32,000 bases of DNA from Candidatus Iainarchaeum sp. (GTDB lineage: Archaea; Iainarchaeota; Iainarchaeia; Iainarchaeales; JACQJH01), in contig JACQJH010000001.1 in the NCBI GenBank assembly GCA_016205145.1, positions 210,001 to 242,000 of the forward strand, in the 5' to 3' direction. Below the pieces are notes generated by a model. That model was not told the DNA's origin. It was given only the letters and a program-made list of their open reading frames with translations, and searched no databases. A program made the translations under genes and the position numbers. Position 1 is the stretch's first letter. Every line of letters starts with the position of its first letter. Positions 21,340-30,382 of this stretch are shown one piece after another.

Positions 21340-21552
21340 GTTGGGCATGTGCGGTATCGGCGGTAGCGAAGATACCACAAACAGCACTGGCTTTTGCGTG
21401 ATGGCTTGCCCGGCGTATTGCGATACGCAATACGCCTTGGTTCCGCACGCAGGGGGCTCTGCCCCCTCGCACGCCCCCGAAACATTTACTACGATCACTC
21501 GGCGTATTGCGATTAGCAATACGCCTTTGTTCGCACCAGCCGGGCGTTCGGC
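21340..21552 (-). repeat. Hairpin-module repeat, locus C, about 1.5 composite units bracketed by the 23-nt repeats.
   Basis: Minus-sense order of modules:
- AGCCG-AACGCC-CGGCTGGTGCG.
- AAAGGCG-[TATTGC TAATC GCAATA]-CGCCGAGTG.
- AAATGTTTCGGGGG.
- GCGAGGGGGC-AGA-GCCCCCTGCG.
- CCAAGGCG-[TATTGC GTATC GCAATA]-CGCC.
- GGTATC...GATACC hairpin. Confidence 0.85.
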
Positions 21553-21575
21553 TATGCCCACTGATTTTAAACTTT
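21553..21575. repeat. Exact 23-nt direct repeat, copy 2.
   Basis: Identical to 21285-21307. It lies 10 nt beyond the tRNA-Thr 3' end. Confidence 0.9.
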
Positions 21576-26897: not shown

Positions 26898-27090
26898 GCC
26901 TGCTTAATTAGTTTTTTTGCTCGTAGAATTTGTGGAACTTTGTGTGCAGAATGCCTTCGCCTTGTTCAGTCTTTCAGTCATTCCGGTTCAATTCCTGATG
27001 GCAATGGGCCTTTTGCAGTTCGCCACAGCCATGCCTGGCGCAACAATCGCGTTCCCGGTTTACTTTCCCAGAAACGCAAAAAATTAGGAA

Positions 27091-27236
27091 TGCCCCGGCC
27101 GGGATTCGAACCCGGGTCGCGGCCTCACCCCGCTCTTGAATTTTTTGGAAAATCCTTGAGAGGGCCGAGTGCTTTCGGCAACAGCTGCTTTTTTTTATAA
27201 AAACAAACCGTTTTAGCCGGACTACACCACCGGGGC
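27091..27236 (-). tRNA. tRNA-Glu (CTC) with two introns: about 40 nt in the D-loop/D-stem junction and about 31 nt at 37/38.
   Basis: Hand fold:
- Acceptor: GCCCCGG/CCGGGGC, discriminator A.
- D arm: GTGT-AGTCCGGCTAA-[intron about 27173-27212]-GCAC.
- Anticodon: CGGCC-CTCTCA-[intron about 27126-27156]-A-GGCCG.
- T arm: CCGGG-TTCGAAT-CCCGG.
- Length: spliced length 75 nt.
- Downstream: a T-run follows the 3' end. Confidence 0.85.
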
Positions 27237-27878
27237 ACTGCAGAATTTTTTGAACCTGTTTATGTGCTTTTTGTTGCTGAACCCGATTTCAGTGAAATAA
27301 CGCAGGACTTCTTTAGAATCTCCCATTGAGCACTGCATTGTATTCCTGTCCTTCTTTTGGGTCCATTTAGATACTCTGTAGCCCAATATTTTAAATGCCT
27401 TTGTTATGCTGCTTTGGATTGTAGGCGATGCCGTGGCGAACCAGATTGTGGGCGTTTTGTGCCTGCGCGTTTTCGGGTAAACGCTTCCGTCAGTGTCAAT
27501 CAATCCCCTGACACAGGCTTTAAGGTAACCGCTTTTTCCAAGAACCCAGCAGGGAATTGCCGCGCCATTCGTGGTTTTATTGCCGTTTTTTATGCCAAAA
27601 TGCATCAGCGTGTGCACCAAATTTTTGCTTTGCTTGAATATGACGACAGCGTTTCCGGTTTTTGGAAATTTTATGCTGAATTCGGTTCCAAACACTTTTT
27701 TGAACAGGCCCGAAGTATAATTTGTCAGATAATCAAAATCGTTCCCGCGATGGCCTATAATTCTTATTTGGTAAATGCTTTTTTCTTTTATAACCTGGCA
27801 GTTTCCGTCGCCAAGCATTATGCCGATAATTTCCGCAAGCTCCGCGCTTTTCTTTTTTGCAAGCAATTTCGGTTTCAT
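27222..27878 (-). CDS. Free-standing double-motif LAGLIDADG homing endonuclease.
   Basis: Motifs IIGIMLGDGN and VRGLIDTDGS lie about 100 aa apart. The start is ambiguous: ATG 27878, ATG 27926, or GTG 27998, which overlaps the U32 stop as GTGA. The stop TAG (27222-27224) lies inside tRNA-Glu. Confidence 0.85.
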   Translation of the reverse strand: MKPKLLAKKKSAELAEIIGIMLGDGNCQVIKEKSIYQIRIIGHRGNDFDYLTNYTSGLFKKVFGTEFSIKFPKTGNAVVIFKQSKNLVHTLMHFGIKNGNKTTNGAAIPCWVLGKSGYLKACVRGLIDTDGSVYPKTRRHKTPTIWFATASPTIQSSITKAFKILGYRVSKWTQKKDRNTMQCSMGDSKEVLRYFTEIGFSNKKHINRFKKFCSAPVV

Positions 27879-27994
27879 CGGCAAGAATTTGCCGTTCTTC
27901 CGCGGCTGCAGCCGGCAATTACCCATAATGTACTGTTGTTTTTGTGGACAAAAGGGGTTTGCCAAGTGGCTTTCCCCTGATTCTTGATTTGGCC

Positions 27995-30382
27995 TCACAC
28001 CGCCTTTTCATAGCTTGCGCGCGTGAACGGCATGTCCGCAAAGCCTTTTCCACCGCCAAGCTTTTCCTTGACGGATGCGATGATTTTTTCCGCGTCTTCG
28101 CCTGAAACGCTGCCAACATCGACCCTGACAACATCGGCAATCGCTTCGAGCTTTTCAAGCTCCGGAACCATGTTCATCGCCATAGGATTGTAGAGGTGCG
28201 TGCGCTCGCTTTCATCCAGTTCAACAGCATATTTCCACTTGTTCCTGTCGATGAGAGTATACCTGCCTTTTTTTGGCAATATTTTGGTTTCGATTATCAT
28301 TATTTCCGGAAGTTCGAATGCGACAAGCTCAATCTTTGCGTCCGTGCGTTTCCGTGTAGCGGAAAGCTGTTTGAGCGTCAGTTCCCCTGACGGCAAAATC
28401 CTTTCGACCTGCGGGTTTTTGGCGAAAAAGTTTGCGGCAATGGAATTGAACACGTTCAAGTTTTTGCCGATGATGATTTTTTCAAAGCCCTGCCCCGCAA
28501 GCCAGTGATAGAGGCCGAGGTTGTTGCATTCGATTGCCGCGCCCGCAAGCTCCGCGCTTTTGCCTTTCACTGTTTCCGACAGCTTTTTGGCGAGCGCTGC
28601 AAGCTCATGGTCCTTCATTATCACGGGCGTTGAAAGCACAAGCTGCATTGCGTGCTCGGAGCAGATTTTTTGCGCTTCAAGCAATGTTTTTTTGTCCGCG
28701 TTTTCCGGGAACGAAACCGCGCAGGGCTTTGCCTGCAGGAAAGCATTCAACTGCTTGAGCGAGGAAACCTTGACTGAGATGGCGGCCTTTCTGCCTTTTT
28801 CATGCCCCGCGTCCTTCAGCAGTTCTTTTTTCCGTTCCTCGAATTTTTTAGCATCAACGTTTTTCCTGAAACCTTCAAGCTTTTTTTTGGTGAACGCGTC
28901 GATGGCTTTCCTGCGCAGGTCGTTGAGCTTGCTGAACGGAACCATGAGGCCCTCGTCGACCTTGACGCTGATGCTTTTCAATTCAAACAATGTTTCGCCG
29001 GTCTTTGAAAGCTTTTCCTCGGCAACCTTTTCTCCGAGCGGGATTTTTTCGGCTTTTTTCGGCGTGAAATCCGAGACGACTTCCGCGGAGGTTTGCCCGT
29101 CAAAAGCCCTTATCCTGAATTCTTTGTGTGAAATTTTCGCTTCAAGGTTCACTTCCGGCTTTTTCATGGTCTTGATTGACGAGTAAGCAAGGTCGGTGAG
29201 CTGTTTGGACTGCACCTTGAAGATTGTCCACCCTTTTTTGATTTCGTGCGGAACCTCGATTTCGACTATTTCGTTTGCAAACGCGTGTTCCATTTCCTTT
29301 CCGTTTTTCAGGATTTTTTTGGCAAAAAAGTCCACTCTCTCGTCGCCCAGCTTGTGCGACAATTTGTCCCATTTCCTGACGCGCTCGAACAATTGGACCT
29401 TTATCTTGCCGTCGGCGTATTCAAGCACTTTCGCGACGCGTATTCCGACCTTTCCCGGATAATCCTTTTTTATGATGTCGTCGTTCTTGCCGTTGAAGTG
29501 CCCTGCCGAAAAGTCGCGGTTGTAGGCTATGCGCAGCTGCTTTATCTCGTCTTCCGAAACCGCTTCTTTTCCGCCGAACGCGTTATCGATTGCTTTCCTG
29601 TAAACCCTTGTCGCAATTGCAACATATTCAGTGCCCTTTTTCCTTCCCTCGATTTTGAATGCCGAAACGCCTGCTTCGGCAAGCTGTTTTATCATGGGCA
29701 CCGCGAAAAGGTCCTTCTGCGACAGCAGATAGCCTTCGTCAATCCTTTTCCCGCCTTCTTCCAAATCGTAAAACAGGCGGCAGTTCTGCGCGCACCTTCC
29801 GCGGTTGCCGGAGCGCTTGAACGAAACGCTGCTCGCAAAGCACTGCCCCGAATATGCTACACACATCGCGCCATGCACAAAGCACTCAACCTCTATTCCG
29901 GTCCCAACCCGTGATTTCATTTCATGGATTTCTTCAACCGAGTTTTCCCTTGCCAGCACCGCGCGCTTGATGCCAAGATCTTTTGCAAACAGCAGTCCTT
30001 CGGTGTTGTGGATTGTCATCTGCGTGCTTGCATGCAATCTCAGCCCGGGCAAAAGCTCGTGCAGGCTGTGCGCCAGGCCGACGTCCTGCACGATTACAGC
30101 GTCAATGCCATGCTCGTACGCACTCTTCGCCATGTCGATTGCCGCGCCGATCTCGAACTCGTTGAGCAGAATGTTCAATGTAAGGTAGGCTTTCCTGCCG
30201 TGCAAATGCAAATAGTCGATTGCTTCTTTCACCTGCTCAGGCGAAAAGTTTTGCGCGCCGATCCTTGCATTGAACGCCTGGTAGCCGAAGTAAACAGCGT
30301 CCGCGCCGTTTGCGACCGCAGCTTTCATGTGCTCAAAGCTGCCCGCCGGGGCGACAAGCTCCGGTTTGATTTGTTTCACCAT
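27995..30382 (-). CDS. Peptidase U32 family protein, long form with a C-terminal extension.
   Basis: 795-aa ORF. U32 signature region EVECFVHGAMCVAYSGQCFAS. The N-terminus KPELVAPAGSFEHMKAAVANGADAVYFG is typical. Confidence 0.9.
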   Translation of the reverse strand: MVKQIKPELVAPAGSFEHMKAAVANGADAVYFGYQAFNARIGAQNFSPEQVKEAIDYLHLHGRKAYLTLNILLNEFEIGAAIDMAKSAYEHGIDAVIVQDVGLAHSLHELLPGLRLHASTQMTIHNTEGLLFAKDLGIKRAVLARENSVEEIHEMKSRVGTGIEVECFVHGAMCVAYSGQCFASSVSFKRSGNRGRCAQNCRLFYDLEEGGKRIDEGYLLSQKDLFAVPMIKQLAEAGVSAFKIEGRKKGTEYVAIATRVYRKAIDNAFGGKEAVSEDEIKQLRIAYNRDFSAGHFNGKNDDIIKKDYPGKVGIRVAKVLEYADGKIKVQLFERVRKWDKLSHKLGDERVDFFAKKILKNGKEMEHAFANEIVEIEVPHEIKKGWTIFKVQSKQLTDLAYSSIKTMKKPEVNLEAKISHKEFRIRAFDGQTSAEVVSDFTPKKAEKIPLGEKVAEEKLSKTGETLFELKSISVKVDEGLMVPFSKLNDLRRKAIDAFTKKKLEGFRKNVDAKKFEERKKELLKDAGHEKGRKAAISVKVSSLKQLNAFLQAKPCAVSFPENADKKTLLEAQKICSEHAMQLVLSTPVIMKDHELAALAKKLSETVKGKSAELAGAAIECNNLGLYHWLAGQGFEKIIIGKNLNVFNSIAANFFAKNPQVERILPSGELTLKQLSATRKRTDAKIELVAFELPEIMIIETKILPKKGRYTLIDRNKWKYAVELDESERTHLYNPMAMNMVPELEKLEAIADVVRVDVGSVSGEDAEKIIASVKEKLGGGKGFADMPFTRASYEKAV

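What the first reader, a model, noticed from the sequence alone, without database searches (positions are those of the whole stretch)
27222..27998. Free-standing LAGLIDADG homing endonuclease whose stop codon lies inside tRNA-Glu
The ORF ends ...TGC AGT GCC CCG GTG GTG TAG, so its last 15 nt are nucleotides 1-15 of tRNA-Glu. Its longest version starts with a GTG that overlaps the U32 peptidase stop (GTGA). The endonuclease gene is therefore wedged exactly between a housekeeping gene and a doubly intron-bearing tRNA, with no spacer on either side.

The gene also looks compositionally foreign. Hand counts of five 60-nt lines inside it gave 35, 57, 45, 35 and 35 % GC, against 57 % for a line in the adjacent U32 gene.

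Archaeal LAGLIDADG enzymes are normally encoded in introns (rRNA) or inteins. A copy abutting a tRNA 5' end could be:
- a relic of an intron or mobile insertion,
- a domesticated enzyme,
- or an element that uses the tRNA gene as its homing site.
Basis: partly seen in the sequence, partly recalled or inferred. Interest (0 to 1): 0.65.

Follow-up and report, generated by a model that had tools for sequence, protein, structure and literature searches.

The report
Homing endonuclease gene docked on tRNA-Glu
A selfish DNA-cutting enzyme gene sits flush against the start of a tRNA-Glu gene. Its relatives occupy the same spot in front of specific tRNAs in tiny archaea and in three bacteria checked, which points to a previously undescribed way for such genes to settle in a genome without breaking anything.

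Summary
ORF 27222-27998(-) encodes a two-motif LAGLIDADG protein, and its last 15 nt are nt 1-15 of a two-intron tRNA-Glu(CUC) at 27091-27236(-). Homologues support the ATG at 27926, not the GTG that overlaps U32, so about 70 nt of spacer remain on the 5' side. The gene is moderately GC-poor: 44% against 51% for the window.

The arrangement is family-wide.
- In 73 of 81 related DPANN loci, a co-oriented tRNA starts within -93..+21 nt of the ORF end. Six more loci show the same tRNA 5' sequence there.
- Endonuclease clades track the isoacceptor: Glu-CUC, Glu-UUC, Gln-CUG, Gln-UUG, Asp.
- Three bacterial homologues end inside tRNA-Ser.
- Syntenic empty sites exist (RpiA-tRNA-Met-tRNA-Glu without the gene), and homology resumes at tRNA +1.
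- Catalytic Asp residues are almost always intact, dN/dS is about 0.07-0.16, and a few copies are decayed.
- D-loop bulge-helix-bulge (BHB) introns are enriched in endonuclease-adjacent tRNAs (41/73 against 2/21).

Best reading: a free-standing homing endonuclease lineage specialised on the 5' edge of particular tRNA genes, a neutral landing site. It may spread together with the D-loop intron. Cleavage, target site and tRNA promoter are inferred, not shown. I found no description of this in the searchable literature.

The parts
27222..27926 (-). LAGLIDADG endonuclease gene, 234 aa from the ATG at 27926. The longest ORF extends to the GTG at 27998.
   Evidence: ORF list; Pfam LAGLIDADG_3; identical 234-aa protein on record, P0001; AF2 model with pLDDT 93.3; Foldseek top hits PI-PfuI, I-Tsp061I and I-DmoI.
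27801..27839 (-). First LAGLIDADG motif, LAEIIGIMLGDGN, with the putative catalytic Asp in GDG.
   Evidence: Read. D40 is at least 90% conserved and G39/G41 are invariant in 44 homologues. LGDG is intact in 74 of 78 loci.
27483..27512 (-). Second LAGLIDADG motif, VRGLIDTDGS, with the putative catalytic Asp in DTDG.
   Evidence: D144, T145, D146 and G147 are invariant. DTDG is intact in 77 of 78 loci.
27091..27236 (-). tRNA-Glu(CUC) gene, 146 nt, with two introns. The anticodon is at 27158-27160.
   Evidence: Rfam RF00005 at 38.5 bits, model positions 1-71, with two large inserts. Fold z-score -3.98. My acceptor/T-arm finder also recovers it.
27222..27236 (-). Overlap: the last four sense codons plus TAG of the endonuclease ORF are tRNA nt 1-15.
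   Evidence: The same -14 register occurs in 36 related archaeal loci and in two bacterial loci (L116, L117).
27176..27215 (-). D-loop intron of about 40 nt, with boundaries good to about 2 nt. It forms a bulge-helix-bulge: central helix CGGC/GCCG, flanked by 3-nt bulges UAA and AAA.
   Evidence: Insert placed by the Rfam alignment and by my reference alignment. The helix and bulges were read by hand and are consistent with the centroid fold.
27125..27155 (-). Anticodon-loop intron of 31 nt, compatible with the canonical 37/38 position.
   Evidence: Rfam insert of 33 nt. Hand parse: stem CGGCC/GGCCG, loop CUCUCAA. Fold.
27258..27272 (-). Candidate (inferred) tRNA promoter inside the ORF 3' end: AAAAAGCACATAAAC at -36..-22 from tRNA +1.
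   Evidence: The two other tRNAs in the window have TTTTAATAAA and GTTTAATGA at about -35..-26. Across 72 endonuclease-adjacent tRNAs, a G-poor, A-rich box sits at -29..-25, where 55 control tRNAs have their T/A-rich box. Not demonstrated.
27078..27083 (-). Oligo-T run just after the tRNA 3' end; a likely transcription stop.
   Evidence: Read. Inference from general knowledge of archaeal termination.

Best explanation
The gene encodes a free-standing, monomeric two-motif LAGLIDADG homing endonuclease. It belongs to a large lineage whose members live at one particular genomic address: the position immediately 5' of, and co-oriented with, one specific tRNA gene.

Inferred mechanism:
1. The enzyme recognises the conserved 5' part of its cognate tRNA gene, here tRNA-Glu(CUC), in an allele that lacks the endonuclease gene, and cuts there.
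2. Repair from the occupied allele copies the endonuclease gene in, flush with tRNA nucleotide +1.
3. The site is harmless to the host because the mature tRNA is untouched. Only the 5' flank and native promoter are replaced.
4. The tRNA is then expressed by read-through from the endonuclease gene, by a TATA-like box in the last codons of the ORF, or by both.

The stop codon inside the tRNA is a by-product. The element carries no stop of its own, so translation ends at the conserved UAG triplets of the tRNA (nt 8-10 or 13-15).

In many archaeal members, the window included, a bulge-helix-bulge intron sits in the D-loop about 20 nt from the ORF end. It plausibly splits the recognition site, giving self-immunity, and travels with the endonuclease gene.

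Shown here: the fold and motifs, the family-wide address, isoacceptor-specific clades, empty and filled syntenic sites with the boundary at tRNA +1, purifying selection, occasional decay, and the intron association.

Inferred: cleavage activity, the target site, homing, the source of tRNA transcription, and the protective role of the intron.
For: Identity:
- Pfam LAGLIDADG_3.
- PDB profile hits to intein and intron endonucleases and to I-DmoI.
- AF2 model with pLDDT 93.3 and pTM 0.90.
- Foldseek hits at E=1e-10 to PI-PfuI and I-Tsp061I, then I-DmoI.
- Both acidic motif residues are conserved.

Address:
- Homologues in L001, L003 and L005 all end at the TAG of nt 13-15 of tRNA-Glu(CUC), with different upstream genes.
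- 425 GTDB species genomes encode a relative.
- In 73 of 81 loci a co-oriented tRNA starts -93..+21 nt from the ORF end: 36 at -14, 14 at -9, 66 overlapping.
- Six more loci show the same tRNA 5' sequence at the ORF end.

Specificity: the NJ tree splits into Glu-CUC, Glu-UUC, Gln-UUG and Gln-CUG clades, a second Glu-CUC clade nested within Gln-CUG, and deep Asp branches.

Bacterial relatives (about 30-33% identity) end inside tRNA-Ser GGA, UGA and CGA.

Mobility:
- RpiA-tRNA-Met-tRNA-Glu(CUC) occurs without the gene in L094, L095, L098, L100 and L102/L103, and with it in L003, L005 and L011.
- Homology resumes exactly at tRNA +1 (L011 vs L098) or within 5 nt of it (L005 vs L100).
- In tRNA-Gln/tRNA-Glu tandems the gene sits either before Gln or between Gln and Glu.

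Selection and decay:
- dN/dS is 0.07-0.16.
- Decayed copies: L005 (truncated), L039 (frameshift), L024 (internal stop), L025 and L084 (GGG in motif 1), L048.

Intron link:
- D-arm inserts occur in 41/73 adjacent tRNAs against 2/21 endonuclease-free Glu/Gln tRNAs, Fisher p=1.3e-4.
- L005 (endonuclease plus D-loop intron) and L100 (neither) have nearly identical exons.
- Fourteen D-loop introns in four isoacceptor types begin GGYC-AAATTCT.

Composition: the gene is GC-poor for the window.
Against: - No cleavage, target-site or transcript data exist.
- No empty site was found for the window's own locus. The closest U32 homologues (61%, 61% and 49% identity) are not syntenic downstream.
- The filled and empty pairs are different species (RpiA 46-56% identical to the query alignment). 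The polymorphism could therefore be deletion as well as insertion.
- Isoacceptor-specific clades could also arise if endonuclease-tRNA modules were ancient and vertically inherited.
- dN/dS well below 1 fits a host function as well as recurrent homing.
- Eighteen adjacent tRNAs have no intron while their endonucleases keep intact motifs. The intron therefore cannot be the general immunity device.
- The upstream flanks of the empty sites are not conserved, so where a 20-bp target would lie is unclear.
- The promoter signal is weak in an AT-rich background, and the window's own box (ACATAAAC) is a poor TATA match.
- The tree is a simple NJ tree without support values.
- The intron counts are not corrected for phylogeny, and intron positions come from a rough alignment.
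Confidence: 0.68

Rival explanations
1. Domesticated LAGLIDADG protein with a host function tied to the tRNA. It would be a WhiA-like DNA-binding factor controlling the adjacent tRNA gene, or a gene kept because its 3' end supplies the tRNA promoter.
For: - Placement and co-orientation are strictly conserved.
- dN/dS is 0.07-0.16.
- WhiA appears among the structural neighbours (ranks 10 and 43), and there are weak WhiA-type Pfam hits in relatives.
- A TATA-like box lies at -29..-25 inside the ORF.
- Many members carry an N-terminal extension of about 90 aa.
Against: - Both catalytic Asp residues are kept almost everywhere. WhiA has lost them (my knowledge).
- Syntenic relatives express the same tRNA from a 41-nt spacer without the gene.
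- Truncated, frameshifted and stop-containing copies exist.
- Distribution is patchy: 425 of 185,579 species genomes matched the two peptide patterns used.
- Promoter capture would conserve the DNA, not the whole protein.
Confidence: 0.13
2. Inactive relic. An old insertion, or the remnant of an intron-borne ORF, that is now decaying and merely tolerated in front of the tRNA.
For: - The window's copy lacks the N-terminal extension present in its closest long-form relatives.
- Some family members are visibly decayed.
- GC3 (0.54) sits at the low end of the host genes' range (0.54-0.69), so any foreign signature is small, which could mean a long residence.
Against: - The window's ORF is uninterrupted, and both motifs and all invariant residues are present.
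- Short forms of 230-238 aa recur, and they share the N-terminal LQPR motif.
- The model is confident throughout.
- The family is under purifying selection.
- No duplicated tRNA fragment or intron remnant lies around the ORF.
Confidence: 0.1
3. RNA-directed helper (maturase-like). The protein would assist folding or splicing of the unusual D-loop intron of the adjacent pre-tRNA, as LAGLIDADG maturases do for group I introns.
For: - D-loop introns are strongly enriched next to the gene.
- Maturases bI3 and I-AniI are among the structural neighbours.
Against: - Eighteen adjacent archaeal tRNAs, and all three bacterial tRNA-Ser genes, have no intron at all.
- The D-loop insert forms a standard bulge-helix-bulge motif, which the archaeal splicing endonuclease should handle unaided (hand parse; my knowledge of EndA).
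- The catalytic DNA-cleavage residues are conserved.
Confidence: 0.04

Closest known systems
Archaeal monomeric LAGLIDADG homing endonucleases: I-DmoI, I-Tsp061I (rRNA-intron encoded), PI-PfuI and the TliVMA intein endonuclease domain
   Same: - Two LAGLIDADG motifs in one chain, with acidic residues in both.
- These are the closest sequence matches (profile E about 1e-6 to 1e-4) and structure matches (Foldseek E about 1e-10 to 1e-8).
- Archaeal hosts.
   Different: - The gene is not inside an intron or an intein. It is free-standing, 5' of a tRNA gene and outside both tRNA introns.
- The presumed target is a tRNA gene, not rRNA or a protein gene.
- Only 13-21% identity to the solved structures.
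Phage T4 SegB, a free-standing GIY-YIG homing endonuclease in the tRNA gene cluster (PMC2330249)
   Same: A free-standing endonuclease gene embedded among tRNA genes. It promotes preferential inheritance of the tRNA region.
   Different: - Different nuclease family (GIY-YIG vs LAGLIDADG).
- Phage rather than cellular genome. IMG/VR holds only weak relatives of this family.
- I do not know of, and did not check, a flush tRNA +1 abutment, an ORF/tRNA overlap, or a family radiated by isoacceptor for SegB.
Collaborative homing or trans homing of a free-standing endonuclease with a nearby intron: F-CphI/psbA in cyanophage (PMC6083498), mobE/I-TevIII in T4 (PMC2790892), reviewed in PMC3984707
   Same: A free-standing endonuclease gene lies next to a gene interrupted by an ORF-less intron. 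The intron is proposed to split the target site and to be co-converted with the endonuclease gene. Here the D-loop intron lies about 20 nt from the ORF end and is statistically associated with it.
   Different: - The intron here is an archaeal bulge-helix-bulge tRNA intron, not a group I intron.
- The association is not obligatory: 18 intron-less cases, plus the bacterial tRNA-Ser genes.
- Cleavage at the intron insertion site is untested.
WhiA, a domesticated LAGLIDADG transcription factor
   Same: Free-standing LAGLIDADG fold in a cellular genome; a structural neighbour.
   Different: WhiA lacks the catalytic acidic residues and is universally conserved in its clade (my knowledge). Here the residues are retained and presence is polymorphic.

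Membership tests
LAGLIDADG homing endonuclease (monomeric, two-motif) | Two LAGLIDADG motifs, each ending in an acidic residue before Gly | tested here: met
   The motifs are LAEIIGIMLGDGN and VRGLIDTDGS. These residues are invariant or at least 90% conserved in 44 homologues. They are intact in 74/78 and 77/78 loci.
LAGLIDADG homing endonuclease (monomeric, two-motif) | Curated family model matched above threshold | tested here: met
   PF14528 LAGLIDADG_3 at 25.4 bits against a cutoff of 22.5, on the second domain only. LAGLIDADG_2 is below cutoff on the first domain.
LAGLIDADG homing endonuclease (monomeric, two-motif) | Pseudo-dimeric alpha-beta-beta-alpha-beta-beta-alpha fold resembling solved enzymes | tested here: met
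   AF2 model with pLDDT 93.3 and two repeats of helix plus strands. Foldseek hits: PI-PfuI 1.4e-10, I-Tsp061I 2.1e-10, I-DmoI about 5e-8.
LAGLIDADG homing endonuclease (monomeric, two-motif) | Site-specific double-strand DNA cleavage of a long target | not testable with these tools
   Needs purified protein and substrates.
LAGLIDADG homing endonuclease (monomeric, two-motif) | Mobility: occupied and empty alleles of the same site | tested here: inconclusive
   Met for the family. RpiA-tRNA-Met-tRNA-Glu occurs with and without the gene, with the boundary at tRNA +1. In tRNA-Gln/tRNA-Glu tandems the gene takes alternative positions. But these are between-species comparisons, and no empty allele of the window's own locus was found.
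Free-standing (not intron- or intein-borne) homing endonuclease gene | ORF not embedded in a self-splicing or BHB intron, nor in frame within a host protein | tested here: met
   There is no Hint/intein domain and no intron RNA family in the window. The ORF lies between the U32 stop and tRNA +1, outside both tRNA inserts.
Intron-encoded archaeal LAGLIDADG (I-DmoI type) | Gene located inside a BHB intron of an rRNA (or tRNA) gene | tested here: not met
   The two tRNA inserts are 40 and 31 nt, and the ORF is 5' of tRNA nt 1.
Collaborative homing pair (free-standing endonuclease plus ORF-less intron) | Endonuclease gene adjacent to an intron-bearing target gene, with intron presence linked to endonuclease presence | tested here: met
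   41/73 against 2/21, p=1.3e-4, not corrected for phylogeny. L005 vs L100 is a matched pair. However, 18 adjacent tRNAs are intron-less.
Collaborative homing pair (free-standing endonuclease plus ORF-less intron) | Enzyme cuts the intron-less allele at or near the intron insertion site, and the intron protects the site | not testable with these tools
   Needs cleavage mapping.
Domesticated LAGLIDADG regulator (WhiA-like) | Loss of catalytic acidic residues and uniform presence in the host clade | tested here: not met
   The residues are retained, and empty sites and decayed copies exist.

The most novel reading that the evidence does not exclude
The endonuclease gene, the first 20 or so nucleotides of the tRNA, and the D-loop bulge-helix-bulge intron form one composite mobile unit. 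The enzyme would cut intron-less tRNA-Glu/Gln genes in the D-arm, and repair would install both the intron (which then shields the site) and the flanking endonuclease gene. Occasional target switches would carry the same intron (GGYC-AAATTCT...AGAAGG) into other isoacceptors. This would be the first DNA-level mechanism for the gain and spread of short non-canonical tRNA introns in archaea. It would also define a general class of homing endonucleases, found in DPANN archaea and in some bacteria, that use the processed 5' edge of tRNA genes instead of an intron or intein as their harmless landing site.
Probability: 0.3. Interest if true: 0.85.

Novelty: new variant of a known kind. Interest (0 to 1): 0.72.

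Why it matters
Homing endonuclease genes are thought to persist in conserved genes only by hiding in self-splicing introns or inteins, or, in phages, between genes. This family suggests a third option in cellular genomes: dock exactly at the 5' boundary of a tRNA gene. There the target is highly conserved, yet the insertion is removed from the product by ordinary tRNA transcription and processing.

The family is large (970 clusters at 50% identity with E<=1e-30). It is spread over DPANN archaea, and three bacterial homologues, at least one from the CPR, show the same arrangement. It is split into lineages that track single isoacceptors.

This has three practical consequences:
- It explains a recurrent annotation oddity, namely ORFs running into tRNAs and tRNAs missed by standard finders.
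- It offers ready-made candidate meganucleases with predictable targets.
- Through the link with D-loop introns, it makes the old question of how non-canonical archaeal tRNA introns arise and move directly testable.

Tried and rejected
- U32-anchored empty-site search. The three closest U32 homologues (L088, L089, L090) have unrelated genes downstream, so they say nothing about the site.
- Viral origin. IMG/VR holds only seven weak relatives, none convincing.
- Displaced tRNA fragment. I looked for a duplicated tRNA 5' fragment upstream of the ORF, as an integrating element would leave. The 15-mer occurs once in the window even at 3 mismatches.
- 'tRNA-like' motifs upstream of the gene in L003, L005 and L001. 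These turned out to be a small conserved ORF on the opposite strand, also present at the empty site L100. It is host synteny, not part of the element.
- Group I or other intron RNA around the ORF. Nothing passes Rfam gathering thresholds. The paper on archaeal group I introns reports rRNA hosts only.
- ARAGORN with intron mode. It mislabels most D-loop-intron tRNAs (wrong anticodons). I replaced it with an acceptor/T-arm finder plus alignment to intron-less references. My D-stem classifier was too permissive, so I used only the listed sequences from it.
- Test of whether endonucleases next to intron-less tRNAs have lost catalytic residues. They have not, so the intron is not the only possible immunity device.
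- The sigma-70 promoter scanner was not used, because the host is archaeal.
- Literature. Seven searches found no description of LAGLIDADG genes abutting tRNA 5' ends.

Full report
**1. What is in the window**

The minus strand carries an ORF from 27998 (GTG) to 27222 (TAG), 258 aa.

- Pfam matches LAGLIDADG_3 above its gathering score, with sub-threshold hits to two other LAGLIDADG families.
- Both motifs are present: LAEIIGIMLGDGN (27801-27839) and VRGLIDTDGS (27483-27512).
- Rfam's tRNA model matches 27091-27236(-) end to end at 38.5 bits, with two long unaligned inserts, one in the D-loop and one in the anticodon region. ARAGORN misses this gene.
- Parsed by hand, the gene is a tRNA-Glu(CUC).
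- The first intron is about 40 nt, in the D-loop. Its ends form a textbook bulge-helix-bulge: central helix CGGC/GCCG, bulges UAA and AAA.
- The second intron is 31 nt, compatible with position 37/38. The fold of the precursor agrees.
- The last 15 nt of the ORF (GCC CCG GTG GTG TAG) are tRNA nt 1-15.

The central observation is therefore correct.

**2. What is not correct**

The GTG start that overlaps the U32 stop is only the longest ORF.

- The protein on record begins at ATG 27926 (P0001, 234 aa).
- The 24 upstream codons align with nothing.
- The residues after the ATG (LQPR..K.G) recur at the N-termini of other short-form homologues.

About 70 nt therefore separate U32 from the gene.

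The compositional claim holds in a mild form:
- GC is 44.1% against 51.2% for the window, in the lowest 2.6% of equal-sized windows.
- GC3 is 0.54 against 0.54-0.69 in 17 other long ORFs.

**3. The protein**

- A profile of 44 homologues hits intein- and intron-borne archaeal endonucleases and I-DmoI in the PDB.
- An AlphaFold model built on that alignment is confident (pLDDT 93.3, pTM 0.90).
- Its best structural matches are PI-PfuI, I-Tsp061I, the TliVMA intein endonuclease and I-DmoI. Maturases and WhiA appear further down.
- The acidic residues of both motifs are invariant or nearly so.
- Many relatives are about 300 aa, with an extra N-terminal region of about 90 aa that matches no Pfam family. 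The window's copy is a short form.

**4. The arrangement is a property of the family**

The first three homologues whose contigs I fetched are 50-65% identical to the window's protein. All end, in the same register, at the TAG of nt 13-15 of a tRNA-Glu(CUC), although their upstream neighbours differ from the window's.

The C-termini of most of the 120 listed homologues read like translated tRNA 5' ends: APVV, APIV, SPVV...VA, APSSSGQ....

A scan of one genome per species found relatives in 425 genomes. Nearly all of the top 80 carry DPANN or unclassified-archaeon labels, and a few carry other labels that may reflect mis-binning.

I located each ORF end and searched for a tRNA by T-arm and acceptor pairing.

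- In 73 of 81 loci, a tRNA on the same strand starts between -93 and +21 nt of the ORF end.
- The offset is -14 in 36 loci and -9 in 14.
- In 66 loci the ORF overlaps the tRNA. In 7 it has its own stop 1-21 nt before the tRNA.
- Six of the remaining eight loci show the same tRNA 5' sequence at the ORF end.
- L016 is a true exception, and L074 is unclear.

All three reading frames occur. The frame with no early UAG reads far into the tRNA. The in-tRNA stop is therefore a by-product of a flush junction, not a conserved feature in itself.

The tRNAs are Glu(CUC), Glu(UUC), Gln(CUG), Gln(UUG) and, twice, Asp(GUC).

An NJ tree of the endonucleases separates cleanly by isoacceptor. A second Glu(CUC) clade is nested inside the Gln(CUG) clade. 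The window belongs to a Glu(CUC) clade of Iainarchaeota-like genomes.

One genome (JAFGOX01) carries two members, one at tRNA-Glu(UUC) and one at tRNA-Gln(CUG).

Three bacterial homologues, about 30-33% identical, end inside tRNA-Ser(GGA), tRNA-Ser(UGA) and tRNA-Ser(CGA). Two of them use the same -14 register.

The family has 970 representatives of 50%-identity clusters at E<=1e-30.

**5. Evidence that it is an insertion**

The window's U32 neighbour was uninformative. The closest U32 homologues are not syntenic downstream.

In L003, L005 and L011, however, the gene lies in a conserved block: RpiA, tRNA-Met, endonuclease, tRNA-Glu(CUC). I anchored a metagenome scan on RpiA.

- Six loci have tRNA-Met followed directly by tRNA-Glu(CUC), with spacers of 41-543 nt and no endonuclease gene.
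- Aligning L011 with L098 shows shared sequence through tRNA-Met and its trailer. An insertion of about 1.1 kb follows, and homology resumes exactly at tRNA-Glu +1.
- L005 and L100 share a 90-aa ORF and a small antisense ORF. L005 then has about 606 extra nt, ending within 5 nt of +1.

A second case comes from genomes labelled Nano-, Woese- and Pacearchaeota that have a tRNA-Gln(CUG)/tRNA-Glu(CUC) tandem.

- In L042, L080 and L066 the gene sits in front of Gln.
- In L050, L087, L086, L052 and L049 it sits between Gln and Glu.
- In each case the other tRNA is unoccupied.

These comparisons are between species, so direction (gain or loss) is not proven. Even so, the element has a sharp right-hand boundary at tRNA +1 and is dispensable.

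**6. Selection and decay**

- For pairs with unsaturated dS, dN/dS is 0.07-0.16.
- LGDG is intact in 74 of 78 copies and DTDG in 77 of 78.
- Decayed copies exist: L005 (first motif truncated), L039 (frameshift), L024 (internal stop), L025 and L084 (GGG), L048 (DTDD).

This mixture is what the invasion, decay and loss cycle of homing endonuclease genes predicts. On its own, it does not exclude a host function.

**7. The D-loop intron**

- D-arm inserts at about position 20/21 occur in at least 41 of 73 endonuclease-adjacent tRNAs.
- Among 21 endonuclease-free Glu/Gln tRNAs in the same loci, I saw two. Fisher p = 1.3e-4.
- Within the window's clade the counts are 7 of 9 against 0 of 5.
- Other tRNAs in these loci often have anticodon-loop introns but almost never D-loop introns.
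- L005 (endonuclease plus D-loop intron) and L100 (neither, but with an anticodon intron) have nearly identical exons.
- Fourteen D-loop introns from four isoacceptor types begin with the same GGYC-AAATTCT.

This resembles the 'collaborative homing' described for phage free-standing endonucleases and ORF-less introns (PMC6083498, PMC2790892, PMC3984707).

Caveats:
- The counts are not phylogenetically corrected.
- Intron positions come from a rough alignment.
- Eighteen adjacent tRNAs are intron-less while their endonucleases look intact.
- The three bacterial tRNA-Ser genes checked were called as uninterrupted genes.

**8. How the tRNA is expressed**

At empty sites the short spacer carries an obvious TATA-like box. 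At occupied sites that spacer is gone.

- Relative to tRNA +1, and independent of reading frame, the 72 occupied sites show a G-poor, A-rich box at -29..-25. This is where 55 control tRNAs have their T/A-rich box.
- The window's two other tRNAs have TATA-like boxes at about -35..-26.
- The window has AAAAAGCACATAAAC at -36..-22, a weak match.
- Strict co-orientation also allows read-through from the endonuclease gene.
- An oligo-T run follows the tRNA.

All of this is inference.

**9. Comparison with what is known**

By fold and motifs the protein is a member of the LAGLIDADG family. It is not a member of the intron- or intein-borne classes.

The nearest functional analogues are:
- T4 SegB, a free-standing GIY-YIG enzyme in a tRNA cluster (PMC2330249);
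- the collaborative-homing pairs cited above.

Seven full-text searches found no report of LAGLIDADG genes docked on tRNA 5' ends. The library is incomplete, so prior description cannot be excluded.

**10. Verdict**

The best-supported explanation is a free-standing homing endonuclease lineage specialised on the 5' edge of specific tRNA genes. The in-tRNA stop codon is a side effect, and a D-loop intron is a frequent travelling companion. I rate it a new variant of a known kind, with high interest for mobile-element and tRNA-intron biology. Activity, target and transcription remain to be shown.

Noticed in passing
L005:850-1926(-), L093:97-996(-), L095:5-562(+): A more distant LAGLIDADG_3 paralogue (about 25-35% identical) lies flush against the 3' end of tRNA-Thr(GGU) in convergent orientation. 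Its ORF runs on through the antisense of the tRNA. Syntenic loci L003 and L091 have tRNA-Thr followed directly by RpiA without it. This looks like a second tRNA-edge-docking endonuclease lineage, at a 3' end.
   Followed up: partly
L108:2501-3178, L116:2501-3511, L117:2501-3496: Bacterial homologues also end inside tRNA genes, here tRNA-Ser GGA, UGA and CGA. They come from a Ca. Vogelbacteria MAG, an unnamed Logan contig, and a MAG labelled Deltaproteobacteria. L116 and L117 use the same -14 register as the window; in L108 the overlap is 23 nt.
   Followed up: partly
window:21285-21307 and 21553-21575; window:21411-21443 and 21500-21532: Between tRNA-Lys and tRNA-Thr there are two exact copies of a 23-nt motif (TATGCCCACTGATTTTAAACTTT; on the minus strand it reads AAAGTTTAAAATCAGTGGGCATA, which is TATA-like). 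There are also two copies of a 25-nt perfect-palindrome hairpin (GGCGTATTGCGAT.AGCAATACGCC). These may be small RNA genes or promoter and terminator units. Rfam reports nothing there.
   Followed up: partly
L066:3738-3905, L056:4931-5098, L047:4337-4509, L070:3616-3785, L086:3628-3800, L087:3613-3782: tRNA-Glu(CUC) genes of loci labelled Nano-, Woese- and Pacearchaeota carry conserved anticodon-loop introns of 95-100 nt (up to 132 nt in L051) that share sequence blocks such as GTCGTTGAGA..ATA. An intron of this size and conservation might encode a small RNA, for example a box C/D guide. Not examined.
   Followed up: no
L003:3840-3900(-), L005:3905-3965(-), L001:3650-3790(-), L100:1335-1455(-): A small conserved ORF lies on the strand opposite to the endonuclease gene (MKNRLS...DDYEF in L003). 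It is present at both occupied and empty sites, so it belongs to the host. Its function is unknown.
   Followed up: partly
L089:585-1769: An IS605 OrfB/TnpB-like gene sits directly upstream of the closest U32 homologue. This fits the broken synteny around U32 in this lineage.
   Followed up: no
L094:1006-1123, L095:4801-4921, L091:961-1060: The tRNA-Met genes in several RpiA-anchored loci carry an insert of about 26-44 nt before the anticodon (around position 30-32). This is another non-canonical intron position in these archaea.
   Followed up: no
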